DNA of 64,000 nt from the human T2T-CHM13v2.0 reference genome, Homo sapiens. Below, piece by piece: positions 56,681 to 64,000 of this stretch. The stretch's first letter is position 1. Every line of letters begins with the position of its first letter. The DNA lies in the NCBI RefSeq assembly GCF_009914755.1, contig NC_060930.1, one strand, 5' to 3'. The position numbers and the translations under genes were made by a program. The notes under the pieces were generated by a model that was not told the DNA's origin, did not search any database, and worked only from the letters and a program-made list of their open reading frames with translations.

Positions 56681-57232
56681 TCAACTCTGTTCTATTAACG
56701 GAATTAGTGAGTACCCTTAGGTGCCATTTTATGGCAGTAGAGGAGGAGGAAAGAAGAGACAGAAGAAAAGGATAAGGATAGAAAGGGAGAAGGGGAAAGA
56801 AGGAGAAAGGGTTGTGGTAGAGGGCTCCCAATTGCCTTTGCTCACACAGAAGCCGCCAGCACCATATCCCTATAAATGACAGTTGGATGGAACAACCTAG
56901 TCTTCTTGCTTTGACATTTTTCACTGGGTGCTTCTTTCATCATATTGCAATTAGTGTTTACATGCCTGTTTACTCCAGTGAACCATGTCTTGTTCTGCTT
57001 CTTACCCTGAGCACTTAGCCCAGTGCTTGACACACACAGAGTAGGCCTTAATAATGTCTGTTGAATTAACACTGAATACACAACTTCAGATCTTAATTGA
57101 TTTCTTGCCCTCTTGTTTCCATTCATACAGCTTCCTTTTGTTCTGTGAGCCCTCCCAGCCTTTCTCTTTTGCTTCATTGAGTTCATGGTCCCCCTTTCAG
57201 GCCCTCAAAATTGTAAACCTTTATGCTTTTCC

Positions 57233-57530
<298 letters not shown>

Positions 57531-57919
57531 ACTTTTATGCTTTTTCCATTTTTGGCTCTAAGTTGGGACACTTAAACTAGTTCTAGGTGGCCCACAGAGT
57601 GCCTTCTTAGGAAGACAAAGGAAACAGGCTGGGGACAGTGTCTGGGAACAGGAACTTTCTGGGGCCCCAGAAGTATCAGTATCACCAATTCCTGAGCCTG
57701 ACTTTTTTTACTTTGTGAGGGGTTTGACAGGGAGCTATGGTTGAGAGGATAGAGGAGAGGAATGTGGCAGTTCCTGATACCAAGTTTTCATATCCTTCCC
57801 ACCGCTTTGTCCCAGGCCGAAGCATAGAGGCCTACAAGCATTCCCTCACACCCAGCCCTGGCCTGCCAAAGCCAGCCCTGGTCTTTGTGGTAACAAACTT
57901 CTCTCTCCTTCCCTCCCCC

Positions 57920-58347
<428 letters not shown>

Positions 58348-59359
58348 TAAGTTGTAGCTCAAGGGATTTTCTCATGAAGACATGGGGTGCAATGTCTCCT
58401 GGAGGCCAGCTGGCTCACCTTGGGCCCATTTCCTCATTGGCCAACCAGCATACAAGACCTGCTCACCGGGCAGCAGTGAGCTGCTTGACAGCCATATTGA
58501 GGTGGAGGCAAGTAAGGAGGAAAGCTGAATGTCAGTGAGATATTGGCACAGTCTTCGTACACTACAGTGAGGCAGATACGTGTGGGCAGAGCCACCTGTG
58601 GCTTACTTAGAGGAAGGCTGCTATTTGCTTCAAGAGAGGACAAAACCAACAGGTCCATACTTATCTCTCCCTGTCAGCAGATTTGGGTGGCTGTGGCTGG
58701 CCAAGGACACAGCCATGAGATAGACTCATGAGACAGCCAGTCTCACTGGGCTCTGGACAGGACTTGGGTCTCTGGATGGGTCACAGCCTGGGTGAATGAC
58801 AGCCAGGAGAACAACTCTCTGGTTCCATTCCTCCCTGCCTTAGGCTCTAGCTTGAGCAAAGTGGTAGCAGAGCACAGGGGCCTAGGACATTAGCAAGTTC
58901 AACTATATTGGAGCCTTCACAGAAGCATGTGTTTTTCTAGGAGCATCCCTGATGAGCTCCAGCAGTTAAAGGAGGATGAAAACAATAGCCTCAGCAAATT
59001 CTGCAGCAGTTGGGGGCATCCCTGGGAGTCTTTTTTCAATAACATTGTCCCTCACCTATTGCATGACCAGCCACTCTCTGAAATAAAGGTAGAAATAGGT
59101 GCAGGATCTTTCAAGTTGAGCCTGGCTAAGTGAGGTCCACCCTGACCCTCCCATCACCCACTGGGGTTGGAAAGAAAGAAGAGGAATCCTCCAAACTTAC
59201 CGACCCACAGCCTCCAAACTGCCCCAATAGGAAGGCTATGCAGCAGGAAGGAGTTGTGAACTGTGAACTTTCACATAGCACAAAGGACTTGCCCAAACAC
59301 TATGCTAAGAGACTTGACCAGACTTCAGCCTGGCTTCTGCCTACACTAGACTGTGTCCC

Positions 59360-59754
59360 TGTCTTAGTCTGTTTGTGCTGATATGACAAAATGTCTGAAA
59401 CCAGGTCATTTATAAAAGAACAGAAATTTATTTCCACATAGTTCTGGGGGCTGAGAAGTCCAAGATCAAGGCATTAGCAGGTTCAGTGTCTGGTGAGGGC
59501 CTCTGTCTTTGCTTCCAAGATGGTGCCTAGAATGCTGTATCCTCACGTGGCAGAAGAGCAGAACAGCGAAAGGGGGCTAGTTACCTCCAGCCACTAATAA
59601 GGTCACTAATCACATTTTATAAGGTCACTGATCACATTTATGAGAGCTCCACCATCATGACTTAATCACCCCCTGAAGGCCCCACTTGTTAGTGCTATCA
59701 CATTGGTGATTAAGTTCCAACATGTGACTTTGGGGAGACATTCAGACCACAGCA
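59360..59754 (-). mobile_element. MST/MLT1-type MaLR solo LTR
   Basis: tgtcttagtctgtttgtgctg...ttcagaccacagca; 5-bp TSD GTCCC. Confidence 0.8.
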
Positions 59755-60409
59755 GTCCCTAAAGGTGGCCCCAGCCCCTGTGCGAAGTCTTTGCTCAGAA
59801 AAACACAATGCTGCTAAGCTGCAAAATGTACTGTGTCCCAACCCACTTTGCCAAACAGTTTTCAGTAATTTTCCACTCACTCCTTCTGTAATTTTCCATT
59901 TTTCCCAGACTTTCTTTGTCCTCTCTTTTTTTTTACTTCCCCATACCCCCTTTTAATTACCTCTATGATCTCCCTTTAAATGTCCCATTTACCATTGTCT
60001 TAGTTGGAGGTGAGCTCAGTTTATACTAAAGTCTCTCTTCAATACTGCAGTGGTTCGAATAAAATATCTTTCTTTAAAAAGTGACTGATGCTCTTCTCTT
60101 CAACAAGACCAATCTGGAATTTCCACCAATGGCCTCAGCCCTCATGCTCCCAGGCCAAGAAATAGTGGGACCATCCCAGGCACAACAGTGGGATCTATAT
60201 GGGGTCTGCTGAGCCCCAGCAGAGATATGACACAGGCTCACTATCATGGAGAAGCCAGCCATCAACAGGCCCCTGAAGATAGTTGACCACAACACTGCCC
60301 TCCTGACCTAATCACCTCCCCAAAAGCCCCACCTCTTAATATAATCGCCTTGGGAGTTAGGTTTCAACACATGAATTTTGAGAGGACCCACACATTCAGA
60401 TCATAGCAC

Positions 60410-60845
60410 CATTAAACAACAACTTTGCCCCCTGCCCCTAGCCCCTGGTAATCACCATTCTACTTTCTATACATACATACGAATTTGATTACTTTAGATA
60501 CCTCATATTATTGGAATCATGCAGTATTTTTCCTTTTGCAATTGGTTTCACTTAGCATAATGTCCTCAAGTTTCATCCATGTTATAGCATGTGACAGGAT
60601 TTCCTTCATAATAGACAGGCCACATAATATTCCATCGTATGTATACACCACATCTTGTTTATCCAGTCATCCATCAGTGAACATTTGGGTTGTTTCCACC
60701 TCTTGGCTATTGTGAATAATGCCGCTGTGAACATTCTGTATCTCTTGACATTCTGTTTTCAGTTCTTTTGGATATATACCCAGAAGTGGATTGCTGATCA
60801 TTCTATTTTTAATTTTTTGAGTACCCACCATACTGTTTTCCGAAG
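60410..60845 (-). mobile_element. L1M 3' fragment (preceded by MaLR LTR fragment ~60300-60408)
   Basis: tttcacttagcataatgtcctcaagtttcatccatgttatagcatgtgacaggatttcc is typical L1MA/MB 3' sequence. Confidence 0.75.
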
Positions 60846-61065
60846 ATGATGGGCATTTTTATTATTGGTGAATACCCTGGACTTAATATAATGCCTAGGC
60901 ATAAAGGAGACCTTCAAATGCTTTTTGAATACATAAATAATAACAGAAGAGACTAAGGGTAATAAAAACACAGACTTAGGCCTCTCCACCGTGACCTTTT
61001 TTAGCTAAGGCTTAGCCATAATCATTAAAAGCCCTGATCCAGAGGCCTATCTATTCCACGCTTCA

Positions 61066-61467
<402 letters not shown>

Positions 61468-61506
61468 TTATCTATCCATTTCCTTTATTAAATTTTTAAA
61501 TTTCTT

Positions 61507-62021
61507 CTAACAGAAAAAGTATTGATGCCAGTTCCAATAGTTACTTTCCTGCCCTTTGGGGCAGGACAGTTCGATATGTGTACCTCCAGAAGCCCCAGCA
61601 CACATTAGGAAGCCATCTTTGGTCCAGAACTTCTCTATCTGTGCTATCTTTCAGCACCTCCTCAAAATCAGGCTGGTTTTCCAGGCGATAGCACAGATGG
61701 CATCCACAACCTCATAGAAGGCATGCTCAGCAATAGATCTGTCTACCCCAAGGAACTTAGCAGCAAGACACAGAGGCACCAGGGAGGCCAGCAATGCAAC
61801 CCAGTAGCTACTTTCTGAGACACAGACAGAGGCAATTTTATGTGGATGGTTTTCCTTTGAAGATGTGTGGCCAGCTTTTCAAAGATAAAGTAAAATGTCT
61901 CCTTAGACATCAGGAAGGTTTGCCTCCAACTGTCGGGGATGTCTGCCCACTCAGAGGTCCTGCTGAAGATGGGACAATGTGGAGAGAGCTCTGGTCCTGT
62001 GGGCTCTAAGAGATCAAGCAT
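61507..62021 (-). pseudogene. Decayed PIF/Harbinger (HARBI1/DDE_Tnp_4-like) transposase coding fragment
   Basis: Manual translation WRQTFLMSKETFYFIFEKLATHLQRKTIHIKLPLSVSQKVATGLH/fs/LASLVPLCLAAKFLGVDRSIAEHAFYEVVDAIC...GFLMCAGASGGTHIELSCPKGQESNYWNWHQYF shows the family motifs in order and spacing. Confidence 0.8.
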
Positions 62022-62594
62022 CTGGCTCTATGAACAGAGAACAGATGACCTGCTTTGGTTCTCCAATATTGATTCAGTTTGACCTGCATGGTCTGGGCCA
62101 GGGAAGCCACCTGCTCAGCCTCTTCACTCTCAGCCACAAGCACAGCAGCAATGGCTCTCCTTTGCAGGACAGCTTGTGCAAGATGTTGCAGTCCCCCCTG
62201 AGCTTGATGCTGAAAGCATGCTTTGAGGGTGGTGGAGGCCTTTGAGTTGAGTTGGGTACAGTGATGTGTGAGTGTGTGTGACTTTCCTAATAAAAGTCAA
62301 TGAAATTTTCCCCCAGGTAACCGTGGAAGCTCAGGGTTGAGTTAGTTGATGAATATCAGGCCTTCCATTATGAAGTGAATGCAGGTATGAATGAAATTAT
62401 ATCTGTGTAACCACACATCAGTATCTTCCCTCCATGTTCTTACAGAATCAGTCAGCAATACAAGAGCCAAAGTAAAACAGCTCAGAGAAAATAAGACTCA
62501 TTCTTAGTGTGGATATCATTCTTTTCCTCACACAGACTTCCTCTCCTTAATGACCCCTTCCTTCTAAAGGACTTTTCATTTTTCCTGGCCTTCT

Positions 62595-63056
62595 TGTAGC
62601 AGGACGAGCCACAGACAGAGCTCCTCAGACACGGAATTAAAGAAGGAAGGAATTTATTCGGCTGGGAGCATTGGCAAGACTCCTGTCTCAAGAGCCAAGC
62701 TCCCCAAGTGAGCAATTCCTGTCCCTTTTAAGGGCTCACAACTCTAAAGGGGTCCACATGAGAGGGTTCTGATGGATTGAGCAAGCAGCGGGTATGTGAC
62801 TGGGGGCTGCATGCACCAGTAATCAGAACGAGACAGAACAGGACAGGGATTTTTACAATGCTCTTCCATACAATGTCTGGAATCTATAGATAACATAACC
62901 AGTTAGGTCAGGGGTTGATCTTTAACTACCAGGCCCAGGACGCGGCGCCGGGCTGCCTGCCTGTGGATTTCATTTCTGCCTTTTAGTTTTTACTTCTTCT
63001 TTTGTTGGAGGCAGAAATTGGGCATAAGACAATATGAGGGGTGGTCTCCTCCCTTA
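62595..63056 (-). mobile_element. LTR2 (HERV-E family) solo LTR, full length
   Basis: Minus strand TAAGGGAGGAGACCACCCCTCATATTG...CTCGTCCTGCTACA; 4-bp TSD TTCT. Confidence 0.88.
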
Positions 63057-63098
63057 TTCTGACTCTCTTCACCAAGCAAACACATTGGCAAAATTCTA

Positions 63099-63478
<380 letters not shown>

Positions 63479-64000
63479 ATTGGCAAAATTCTACAGGAAG
63501 TCCCTCCCACACACTAAATTCAAAGAGTGCCCTGACAAACCAAACTGCTTCACCAGTTTTACTTGCCCTGATCATCTAACGTCCCCCACAAGCAGGCACA
63601 TGAAGATGGTTAGTTTTTTGTTTTGTTTTTGTTTTGTTTTAAGACAAAAAGCCAAGACCTTTTTCAATCTCGGGTTTCTGCCTTTTAGTTAAAAAATTCA
63701 CTCTATATTTCAATCTATTATGAGGAAGGACCTGCTTGACAGGAGTGAAAAAAAAATCAATTATTCCTTAAAGTTTTCAGAAAGAAAAACCACATGGAAG
63801 AATAGACTTTAACATTAGCATTGGATATTTCTAGATCTCAGCGCTCTCACATTGCCAAGTCACTTGGAATGTCTAATCAGCTGCCTAATGGAGGAACTGA
63901 GACTGCAAAGCATTCTTGACACACCACTGCAGTGCTTTCTCTTTCATACTGCAGTGCTTTCCTGCTGTTTCTTACTTAATGAAAATCTACTTCCATAATA

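What the first reader, a model, noticed from the sequence alone, without database searches (positions are those of the whole stretch)
61507..62021. Fossil PIF/Harbinger transposase-like gene upstream of MCM3
Seen: minus-strand translation across one 1-nt frameshift (~61792) and one stop (61651-61653) gives ~140 aa: WRQTFLMSKETFYFIFEKLATHLQRKTIHIKLPLSVSQKVATGLH / LASLVPLCLAAKFLGVDRSIAEHAFYEVVDAICAIAWKTSLILRRC*KIAQIEKFWTKDGFLMCAGASGGTHIELSCPKGQESNYWNWHQYF. Known: HARBI1/ALP1-type Harbinger transposases carry in order WxxxFRMSxxTF, VAxxLxxLA, an HTH with FGVxxST...EVxxAI, GFPxCxGAIDGTHIxIxxP (first catalytic Asp) and YxNRKxxxS. All five appear with near gap-free spacing, but the catalytic Asp codon reads GGA (61585-61587). 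Inference: Harbinger coding remnants are rare in the human genome apart from domesticated HARBI1. Only two frame breaks in ~420 nt suggests a domesticated, possibly catalytically dead gene that stayed under selection until fairly recently (unitary pseudogene). I do not know whether it is already annotated.
Basis: partly seen in the sequence, partly recalled or inferred. Interest (0 to 1): 0.85.

Follow-up and report, generated by a model that had tools for sequence, protein, structure and literature searches.

The report
Broken Harbinger transposase relic near MCM3
About 18 kb upstream of human MCM3 lies a single-copy, broken and truncated remnant of the first half of a Harbinger-type transposase gene; it belongs to a rare but already described class of ancient "protein fossils", and nothing here shows it was a recently lost host gene.

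Summary
On the minus strand of 61507-62021 the three open stretches, the frame change at 61792-61793, the TGA at 61651-61653 and the GGA at the catalytic-Asp position (61585-61587) are all as described.

The Harbinger identification also holds, but only with a purpose-built profile. Pfam, BLASTP against HARBI1 and a word-based protein search found nothing. A profile of 150 HARBI1-like transposases ranks two of the three pieces first and second among 2159 six-frame ORFs of the window. The read-through, with X at both breaks, scores 52.7 bits, E 2.5e-15. It forms one alignment over profile positions 43-180 with one insertion and one deletion, and 0 of 2000 shuffles exceed 5.7 bits.

Only the N-terminal half is present. 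The rest of the catalytic core, a Myb-like partner ORF and further copies were not found.

The "domesticated gene, recent unitary pseudogene" reading is neither shown nor excluded. The frame is better kept than long neutral decay predicts, but no intact protein relative turned up and other vertebrate genomes could not be searched.

PIF/Harbinger protein fossils in human are already in print (PMC9004415).

Verdict: new member of a known kind, modest interest.

The parts
62019..62021 (-). ATG, candidate original start codon
   Evidence: It lies two codons after an in-frame TAG at 62028-62030. hhalign puts residue 23 of this ORF opposite HARBI1 residue 24, so the Met sits within a few residues of HARBI1's Met1. 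It could be chance.
61794..62018 (-). Frame A: N-terminal region of the transposase (W..F.MS..TF block and the LSVSQKVATGL block)
   Evidence: This ORF ranks 2nd of 2159 window ORFs, E 0.0025, profile positions 43-87. hhalign gives E 0.0021 against HARBI1 residues 24-80, probability only 13%. P0138 aa 79-141 align to 62012-61836. As a lead only, Atlas features resemble eukaryotic clusters that partly carry DUF8040, a domain also listed on some HARBI1-like proteins.
61792..61793 (-). Frame change (two bases skipped between frame A and frame B)
   Evidence: The read-through joined here, with X at the break, gives one continuous profile alignment. The two tblastn pieces of P0138 abut here, at 61836/61833.
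61654..61791 (-). Frame B: helix-turn-helix-like region (FLGVDRSIAEHAFYEVVDAI)
   Evidence: hhalign of P0001 against the family alignment: probability 90.9%, E 1.1e-6, HARBI1 91-171 opposite P0001 41-120. Alone it is weak: E 7, profile 99-124, rank 6 of 2159.
61651..61653 (-). In-frame TGA stop
61510..61650 (-). Frame C: linker and the start of the DDE core (GFLMCAGASGGTHIELSCP...NYWNWHQY)
   Evidence: Best ORF of 2159, E 1.3e-5, profile 142-180. It takes most of the tblastn hits.
61585..61587 (-). GGA (Gly) at the column of the first catalytic Asp
   Evidence: Profile alignment 'GaiDcth' opposite 'GASGGTH'; codon read.
61507..61509 (-). Stop codon; homology ends about here (profile position 180 of 364)
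   Evidence: G+C falls from about 0.50 to 0.36-0.37 just below this point. No later profile positions were found significantly anywhere in the window.

Best explanation
This is a dead, single-copy relic of the first ~170 codons of a PIF/Harbinger (HARBI1-like, DDE_Tnp_4-type) transposase reading frame. It holds a candidate start codon, the N-terminal region, the helix-turn-helix-like region and the first catalytic motif. It is broken by one frame change and one TGA. The first catalytic Asp is replaced by Gly, and everything after profile position 180 is missing, including the second Asp and the Glu. It cannot encode a working transposase or nuclease (shown). I infer that it stems from an old Harbinger transposon insertion in a vertebrate ancestor, of a lineage distant from HARBI1. 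I also infer that its downstream half was lost by deletion and the surroundings later filled by L1, Alu and another repeat. The surviving piece has changed less than free neutral decay over that time would allow, either because the DNA evolves slowly or is constrained, as in the published ancient TE protein fossils, or in part by luck. Today it most likely has no protein function. Any present role would be non-coding and remains untested.
For: Identification. (1) 38 of 150 family proteins give tblastn HSPs in 61400-62300, and 13 have E<=0.05 there against 1 elsewhere in the 64 kb. (2) The 500-base bin at 61500 holds 35 of 586 HSPs, with a maximum of 14 elsewhere. (3) The best match is P0138, a tarpon 'putative nuclease HARBI1', with two collinear pieces across the frame change, E 2.9e-7. 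(4) The profile ranks the pieces 1st, 2nd and 6th of 2159 ORFs, in collinear order. (5) hhalign gives E 1.1e-6. (6) The read-through scores 52.7 bits, E 2.5e-15, with 0 of 2000 shuffles above 5.7 bits. (7) In a second set of 62 proteins, the four best hits fall on the same spot.

Dead and truncated. The breaks are seen. No DDE_Tnp_4 hit appears in six frames of 57001-64000, and no significant later profile positions appear in the window.

TE-fossil class. The same profile confirms six other short, broken Harbinger-like pieces in this genome. One, near chr2:145.73 Mb in T2T, is probably the ZEB2-desert fossil of PMC9004415 table 4 (hg38 chr2:145,279,820); the coordinates were not lifted over. 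That paper reports 20 pre-amniote PIF/Harbinger fossils in human.

Against a living gene family. No protein of 217-2000 aa scored E<=1 among 108 word-sharing candidates, in a database that holds bird, frog and fish HARBI1.
Against: A transposon origin predicts other copies, terminal inverted repeats and a Myb-like second ORF. None was found. The DNA and P0001 searches of the genome return only the locus itself plus noise. No Myb-type Pfam hit or match to the Myb part of fused fish proteins appeared. Repeats and TSDs were not searched, because the downstream end is missing.

The frame is unusually whole for an old neutral relic. In a simulation, at most one stop and at most one frameshift in 171 codons has probability below 5% once neutral divergence exceeds about 0.10-0.18 substitutions per site. 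The best fit is 0.04-0.06 (the indel-to-substitution ratios 0.05 and 0.10 are assumed, not measured).

The neighbouring old L1 piece shows 3 frame changes in 114 codons, against 1 in 171 here.

Pfam itself gives no hit, so membership rests on my own profile.
Confidence: 0.6

Rival explanations
1. Unitary pseudogene. A Harbinger transposase was domesticated as a catalytically dead host gene upstream of MCM3. It was kept by selection on the protein for a long time and was disabled and half deleted fairly recently in the human lineage.
For: Single copy in the genome. One stop and one frameshift in 171 codons fits only about 0.04-0.06 substitutions per site of neutral decay. A start codon is retained at a HARBI1-like position. 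Conserved family columns are poorly kept (10 of 26, against a family mean of 0.82) while the frame is well kept, as expected if the protein was maintained after catalysis became dispensable. A precedent in print is the ATF7IP Crypton relic, open in non-mammals and dead in mammals (PMC9004415, section 10).
Against: Only the N-terminal half exists. No related protein of 217-2000 aa scored E<=1 in a database with vertebrate NCBI proteins, so no close intact orthologue is annotated; lengths of 68-215 aa were not searched. The low match to conserved columns is equally explained by descent from a Harbinger lineage distant from HARBI1. The contrast with the adjacent L1 is not significant: at the L1's frameshift density, P(at most 1) is about 0.06-0.13 (my arithmetic). 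Papers on Harbinger-derived vertebrate genes name only HARBI1 as transposase-derived (PMC9392472, passages read). Searches for HARBI2, HARBI1L, HARBI1-like and HARBI1P1, and for MCM3 with PAQR8 and transposase, found nothing relevant.
Confidence: 0.17
2. Neutral relic of intermediate age with no constraint at all. A Harbinger copy, possibly from a low-copy or horizontally acquired family, became fixed in early mammals or primates and simply has not had time to decay further.
For: The decay estimate of at most about 0.10-0.18 substitutions per site overlaps the divergence of the flanking old L1, whose copies are 73-78% identical. The locus sits among ordinary Alu, L1 and other repeat insertions.
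Against: No other copy was detected at DNA or protein level. Harbinger activity in tetrapods is described as anciently lost (PMC9004415, section 10). Kojima 2018 (PMC5753468, passages read) lists no Harbinger repeat family in human Repbase.
Confidence: 0.2
3. Chance resemblance, or a relic of another transposase superfamily such as hAT.
For: Pfam gives no Harbinger hit. BLASTP against HARBI1 exon 1 finds nothing. The overlapping upstream ORF 62006-62296 has a weak hAT-like_RNase-H hit, E 0.023, 15.3 bits against a cut-off of 27.
Against: Read-through E 2.5e-15, with 0 of 2000 shuffles above 5.7 bits. Three pieces are collinear in two frames. hhalign gives E 1.1e-6. The hAT hit is weaker than an obviously spurious Metal_resist hit on the same ORF and vanished in the long-frame scan.
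Confidence: 0.01

Closest known systems
PIF/Harbinger 'protein fossils' of the human genome (Frith 2022, PMC9004415: fossils near ZEB2 and MTX2, 18 further pre-amniote ones, and the repeat UCON84)
   Same: Short, broken DNA stretches whose translation matches Harbinger transposases, mostly missed by RepeatMasker, each apparently solitary. One of them was probably re-found here with the same profile (L014). This locus has the same nature.
   Different: At 513 bases and 138 aligned residues it is as long as the largest entries of that paper's tables 3 and 4. It covers the N-terminus and start codon. It is the most divergent from HARBI1-like proteins (mean identity 0.198, against 0.27-0.41 for four other human fossils). 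Whether it is in that paper's Zenodo list, and whether it is pre-amniote, could not be checked.
HARBI1 (human chromosome 11, domesticated Harbinger transposase gene)
   Same: Same domain order. hhalign places the two pieces opposite HARBI1 residues 24-80 and 91-171.
   Different: No pairwise BLASTP similarity. The locus is broken, truncated at the equivalent of HARBI1 residue ~171, has Gly in place of the first catalytic Asp, and is not found by Pfam DDE_Tnp_4 in the genome scan that finds HARBI1.
Fish Harbinger transposases annotated 'putative nuclease HARBI1' (e.g. P0138 of Megalops cyprinoides and eel relatives fused to a Myb_DNA-bind_5 part)
   Same: Best tblastn match, collinear across the frame change.
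   Different: Only 24% identity over 106 and 63 residues. No Myb-like part was found next to the human relic.
ATF7IP Crypton relic (as described in PMC9004415, section 10)
   Same: A transposon ORF possibly used as coding sequence in early vertebrates and dead in mammals.
   Different: For ATF7IP, open frames in other vertebrates are documented. Here none is known.

Membership tests
PIF/Harbinger transposase (HARBI1-like, DDE_Tnp_4) | Significant, collinear profile similarity over the N-terminal region, HTH-like region and first DDE motif | tested here: met
   Read-through 52.7 bits, E 2.5e-15, profile 43-180. ORF ranks 1, 2 and 6 of 2159. hhalign E 1.1e-6 and 0.0021.
PIF/Harbinger transposase (HARBI1-like, DDE_Tnp_4) | Pfam DDE_Tnp_4 (PF13359) match above the gathering score | tested here: not met
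   0 families for both pieces at E<=10 and none in six frames of 57001-64000. The genome scan with PF13359 finds HARBI1 and chr5:91.94 Mb, not this locus. Only about 27 residues of that domain are present.
PIF/Harbinger transposase (HARBI1-like, DDE_Tnp_4) | Complete DDE catalytic triad | tested here: not met
   The first Asp column is Gly (GGA, 61585-61587). The region of the second Asp and the Glu is absent. Motif-like hits at 60110-60302 are non-collinear and not significant.
Autonomous Harbinger transposon | Second ORF for a Myb/SANT-like DNA-binding protein | tested here: not met
   No Myb-type Pfam hit in six frames of 57001-64000 at E<=1. No hit of the Myb parts of fused fish proteins near the relic at E<=1.
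Autonomous Harbinger transposon | Terminal inverted repeats and 3-bp target-site duplication | not tested
   The downstream half of the element is missing, so no pair of ends can be compared.
Transposon family (any) | Further copies in the same genome | tested here: not met
   The 521-base DNA query returns only itself (1 candidate). P0001 returns itself plus 5 matches with E 0.48-6.9; the two scanned with Pfam show nothing. Sensitivity for very old copies is low.
Unitary pseudogene of a domesticated gene | Intact syntenic orthologue in other species, with selection on the protein | not testable with these tools
   No vertebrate genomes or alignments are on hand. Indirectly, no related protein of 217-2000 aa scored E<=1.
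Unitary pseudogene of a domesticated gene | Fewer disabling changes than neutral decay since the family's last activity | tested here: inconclusive
   The simulation bounds neutral decay at about 0.10-0.18 substitutions per site. The contrast with the adjacent L1 (3 frame changes in 114 codons) is not significant.
Ancient conserved TE protein fossil (Frith 2022) | Orthologous sequence shared with reptiles or amphibians; phastCons conservation | not testable with these tools
   The list is in a Zenodo record and a PDF supplement.

The most novel reading that the evidence does not exclude
The relic is what is left of a second Harbinger-transposase-derived host gene of vertebrates, distinct from HARBI1. 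That gene would have been catalytically dead and kept by selection next to MCM3 for a long time, then lost in the lineage leading to humans. That would make it a rare documented case of a domesticated transposase gene later discarded.
Probability: 0.13. Interest if true: 0.6.

Novelty: new member of a known kind. Interest (0 to 1): 0.3.

Why it matters
Harbinger transposons have long been silent in our lineage, so each relic is direct evidence of the transposons of early vertebrates. Such relics are often kept because the host reuses them. This one is long, includes the start of the gene and is unusually unbroken, so it is a good candidate for asking whether it was preserved as DNA or as protein, or is simply young. 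Comparative alignments can settle that in an afternoon. If it proved to be a lost host gene, it would add a second transposase-derived Harbinger gene to HARBI1. Otherwise it is one more entry in a known catalogue.

Tried and rejected
- **Pfam on the pieces and on six frames of 57001-64000:** no Harbinger hit.
- **BLASTP against HARBI1 exon 1:** nothing.
- **Word-based protein search with P0001, lengths 217-2000 aa:** nothing.
- **Protein Atlas:**
  - The 75-aa ORF gave no usable hit.
  - The 94-aa ORF gave a DUF8040-type lead only.
- **Genome scan with an alignment:** not accepted for this genome. Single proteins P0138 and P0107 were used instead. They found HARBI1 and other fossils but not this locus, which shows the low sensitivity of that scan.
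- **Search for the missing C-terminal half:**
  - 'ISWPGSMRAEAIGGNSRL' (60163-60110) and 'GWLLHDS' (60266-60240) resemble the WPGS.HD and GWLLGDS motifs.
  - They are in the wrong order for one gene. Their window-wide profile E-values are 14 and 19.
  - The second lies 31 bases from a repeated element (60297-60408).
  - Rejected as a continuation, but not explained.
- **My recollection that this repeat continues through 60080-60296:** not borne out by a BLAST of the two local copies; only 111 bases align.
- **hAT origin of the upstream ORF:** rejected as noise.
- **Literature:**
  - 'AmnHarb1', a family name I half remembered, occurs in no held paper.
  - HARBI2, HARBI1L, HARBI1-like and HARBI1P1 gave nothing relevant.
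  - MCM3 with PAQR8 and transposase gave nothing.

Full report
**What is there**

Read on the minus strand, 62027-61507 contains three stop-to-stop open stretches of 94, 75 and 47 codons.
- The second and third stretches are separated by TGA at 61651-61653.
- The first and second lie in different frames. Joining them requires skipping 61792-61793.
- An ATG at 62019-62021 follows an in-frame TAG by two codons.
- ORFs of these lengths are common in the window: 69, 175 and 547 of 2159 six-frame ORFs reach 94, 75 and 47 aa. Length alone means nothing.

**First tests were negative**
- Pfam found no family for either piece, even at E<=10.
- Pfam found nothing relevant in all six frames of 57001-64000.
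- BLASTP against the first coding exon of human HARBI1, taken from the window's own genome, gave no alignment for the larger piece and only E 5.2 for the other.
- A word-seeded search of 5.8 billion proteins (lengths 217-2000 aa) scored none of 108 candidates at E<=1.
- A genome-wide scan with Pfam DDE_Tnp_4 found the two HARBI1 exons and a relic on chromosome 5, but not this locus.

**A family profile settles the identification**

I aligned the HARBI1 exon with four vertebrate orthologues and searched 1.84 billion representative proteins with that profile. It found 17,176 proteins at E<=0.001, and I took the best 150.

tblastn of these 150 against the 64-kb window gave 586 HSPs at E<=10.
- The 500-base bin starting at 61500 holds 35 of them. 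No other bin holds more than 14.
- In 61400-62300 there are 41 HSPs from 38 of the 150 queries.
- 13 queries reach E<=0.05 there, against one anywhere else (best E 0.031).
- The best query is P0138, a 'putative nuclease HARBI1' of the tarpon Megalops cyprinoides.
- It aligns aa 79-141 to 62012-61836 in one frame and aa 142-242 to 61833-61516 in the next, with a joint E of 2.9e-7. The match is therefore collinear across the frame change.

An HMM of the 150 proteins (364 positions) was run without filters against all 2159 ORFs of the window.
- The 47-aa ORF ranks first: E 1.3e-5, positions 142-180.
- The 94-aa ORF ranks second: E 0.0025, positions 43-87.
- The 75-aa ORF ranks sixth: E 7, positions 99-124.
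- These are in the right order. The best unrelated ORF has E 2.7.

hhalign of a 147-sequence alignment gave two results.
- The lower piece: probability 90.9%, E 1.1e-6, HARBI1 91-171.
- The upper piece: E 0.0021 but probability only 13%, HARBI1 24-80.

The read-through, with X at the frame change and at the TGA, scores 52.7 bits, E 2.5e-15.
- It forms a single domain, positions 43-180 against residues 31-168, with one insertion and one deletion.
- None of 2000 shuffles exceeds 5.7 bits, and the reversed sequence, also included, does not appear among the eight best listed.

A second set of 62 relatives of P0138 puts its four best hits on the same spot.

As a lead only, the language-model Atlas places the 94-aa ORF near eukaryotic clusters that partly carry DUF8040. 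That domain is also listed on some HARBI1-like proteins.

Pfam's silence is understandable. Its DDE_Tnp_4 model starts at the GxxDGTH motif, and only about 27 residues of it are present here.

**What is missing**
- The profile column of the first catalytic Asp holds Gly, codon GGA at 61585-61587.
- Homology ends at profile position 180 of 364, at about 61510. There G+C drops from about 0.50 to 0.36-0.37.
- No later part of the protein is found significantly anywhere in the window.

Two motif-like stretches further down resemble the WPGS.HD and GWLLGDS motifs: 60163-60110 'ISWPGSMRAEAIGGNSRL' and 60266-60240 'GWLLHDS'. They lie in the wrong order for one gene and have window-wide E-values of 14 and 19. 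The second lies 31 bases from a repeated element (60297-60408). I do not count them as part of the relic.

No Myb-like partner ORF was detected.

**Surroundings**
- Below the relic lie about 70 AT-rich bases.
- Next comes an Alu-like element in plus orientation. I recognised it by eye, from memory of the Alu consensus. Its lower end at 61089-61129 matches other loci.
- About 245 apparently unique bases follow.
- Then comes an old L1 ORF2 C-terminal fragment on the minus strand (60409-60841). It is 73-78% identical to 39 other scored copies.
- The solved human ORF2p chains align to it in two alternating frames, which means 3 frame changes within ORF2p residues 1151-1264 (the third frame gave nothing).
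- Above the relic, 62022-62593 is unique.
- 62594-63063 is a ~465-base repeat with many copies at 86-93% identity (1323 first-look candidates, 40 scored).

**Copy number**
- The 521-base DNA query finds only itself in the 3.1-Gb genome.
- The protein query finds itself plus five matches with E 0.48-6.9. The two examined with Pfam are noise.
- My profile confirms six other Harbinger-like relics in the loci fetched: chr10:31.73 Mb, chr5:91.94 Mb, chr2:145.73 Mb, chr1:72.25 Mb, chr5:139.11 Mb and chr2:79.45 Mb.
- None is close to this one. Identities are 13 of 62, 10 of 42, 8 of 51 and 2 of 10 shared columns.
- This relic is also the most distant from the HARBI1-like family: mean identity 0.198 and maximum 0.274, against 0.327 between family members and 0.27-0.41 for the other relics.

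**How decayed is it?**

At family columns with at least 70% consensus, the relic matches 10 of 26. The family mean is 0.82 and the minimum 0.54. That means either much amino-acid change or descent from a distant Harbinger lineage.

The frame, by contrast, is well kept. I simulated neutral substitution on a real 171-codon ORF and modelled frameshifts as Poisson at assumed indel-to-substitution ratios of 0.05 and 0.10.
- The observed one stop and one frameshift fit best at 0.04-0.06 substitutions per site.
- The chance of at most one of each falls below 5% beyond about 0.17 (ratio 0.05) or 0.10 (ratio 0.10).

The adjacent L1 gives a rough local yardstick of 3 frame changes in 342 bases. At that density the relic would be expected to carry 3.6-4.5, and seeing at most one has probability about 0.06-0.13. 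This is my arithmetic. It is suggestive, not significant.

**Interpretation**

That this is a relic of a Harbinger-type transposase ORF is, for practical purposes, certain. That it is dead is shown. Its history is not.

The literature makes the class known.
- Frith 2022 (PMC9004415; sections 7, 9, 10 and passages read) found 2 pre-tetrapod and 18 further pre-amniote PIF/Harbinger protein fossils in human. Only one of the 18 had been found by RepeatMasker before.
- That paper also shows that the repeat UCON84 is Harbinger-derived, and attributes the survival of such fossils to exaptation.
- A 2026 T2T repeat survey lists PIF-Harbinger among 44 TE families (PMC13732488, one passage read).
- Kojima 2018 (PMC5753468, passages read) states that no Harbinger repeat family was known in human Repbase.

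One of my six other relics lies near chr2:145.73 Mb in T2T. It is probably Frith's ZEB2-desert fossil (hg38 chr2:145,279,820), but I did not lift the coordinates over.

I therefore read the MCM3-upstream relic as another solitary Harbinger protein fossil. It most likely comes from an old transposon insertion whose surviving piece has evolved more slowly than free neutral DNA.

- It is favoured by single-copy status and frame integrity.
- It is weakened by the absence of the C-terminal half and of any related annotated protein.
- I give it about 0.15.
- A merely middle-aged neutral copy is about as likely.

**Limits**
- No vertebrate genome other than this one, no multi-species alignment, no Dfam and no GENCODE track were available.
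- The genome scan scores only the best first-look candidates. It missed this locus with P0138, so 'single copy' means no copy detectable by these searches.
- The indel ratios in the simulation are assumptions.

Noticed in passing
window 62594-63063: A repeat of about 465 bases with many genomic copies at 86-93% identity (1323 first-look candidates, 40 scored). It abuts the unique DNA upstream of the relic. The family was not identified, as no repeat library is on hand.
   Followed up: partly
window 63078-63148 and 63473-63544: A stretch of about 71 bases is repeated at 90% identity on either side of the masked Alu at 63149-63491. That is far longer than a normal Alu target-site duplication.
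   Followed up: no
window 60409-60841 (minus strand): An old L1 ORF2 C-terminal fragment. It aligns to solved human ORF2p residues 1151-1264 in two alternating frames (3 frame changes) and is 73-78% identical to other genomic copies.
   Followed up: yes
window 60297-60408 and 59652-59754: A repeated element of about 112 bases (80-90% identical to 39 other scored copies out of 2246 candidates). It starts exactly where the L1 fragment ends. A second, 69% identical copy lies 650 bases further down.
   Followed up: partly
window 60110-60302 (minus strand): Two short stretches resemble the Harbinger WPGS.HD and GWLLGDS motifs. They hit several family proteins at the right query positions, but are in the wrong order and not significant. 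The coincidence is unexplained.
   Followed up: partly
window 62006-62296 (minus strand): A 96-aa ORF overlapping the relic's start has a sub-threshold hAT-like_RNase-H hit (E 0.023, 15.3 bits, cut-off 27) around 'MQVKLNQYW'. Judged noise.
   Followed up: partly
G000 loci L013/L022 (chr10:31.73 Mb), L010/L016/L021 (chr5:91.94 Mb), L014 (chr2:145.73 Mb), L015 (chr1:72.25 Mb), L023 (chr5:139.11 Mb), L024 (chr2:79.45 Mb): Six other short Harbinger/HARBI1-like protein relics in the human genome score 32-60 bits against my family profile. L023 has a 91-codon open frame without stops.
   Followed up: partly
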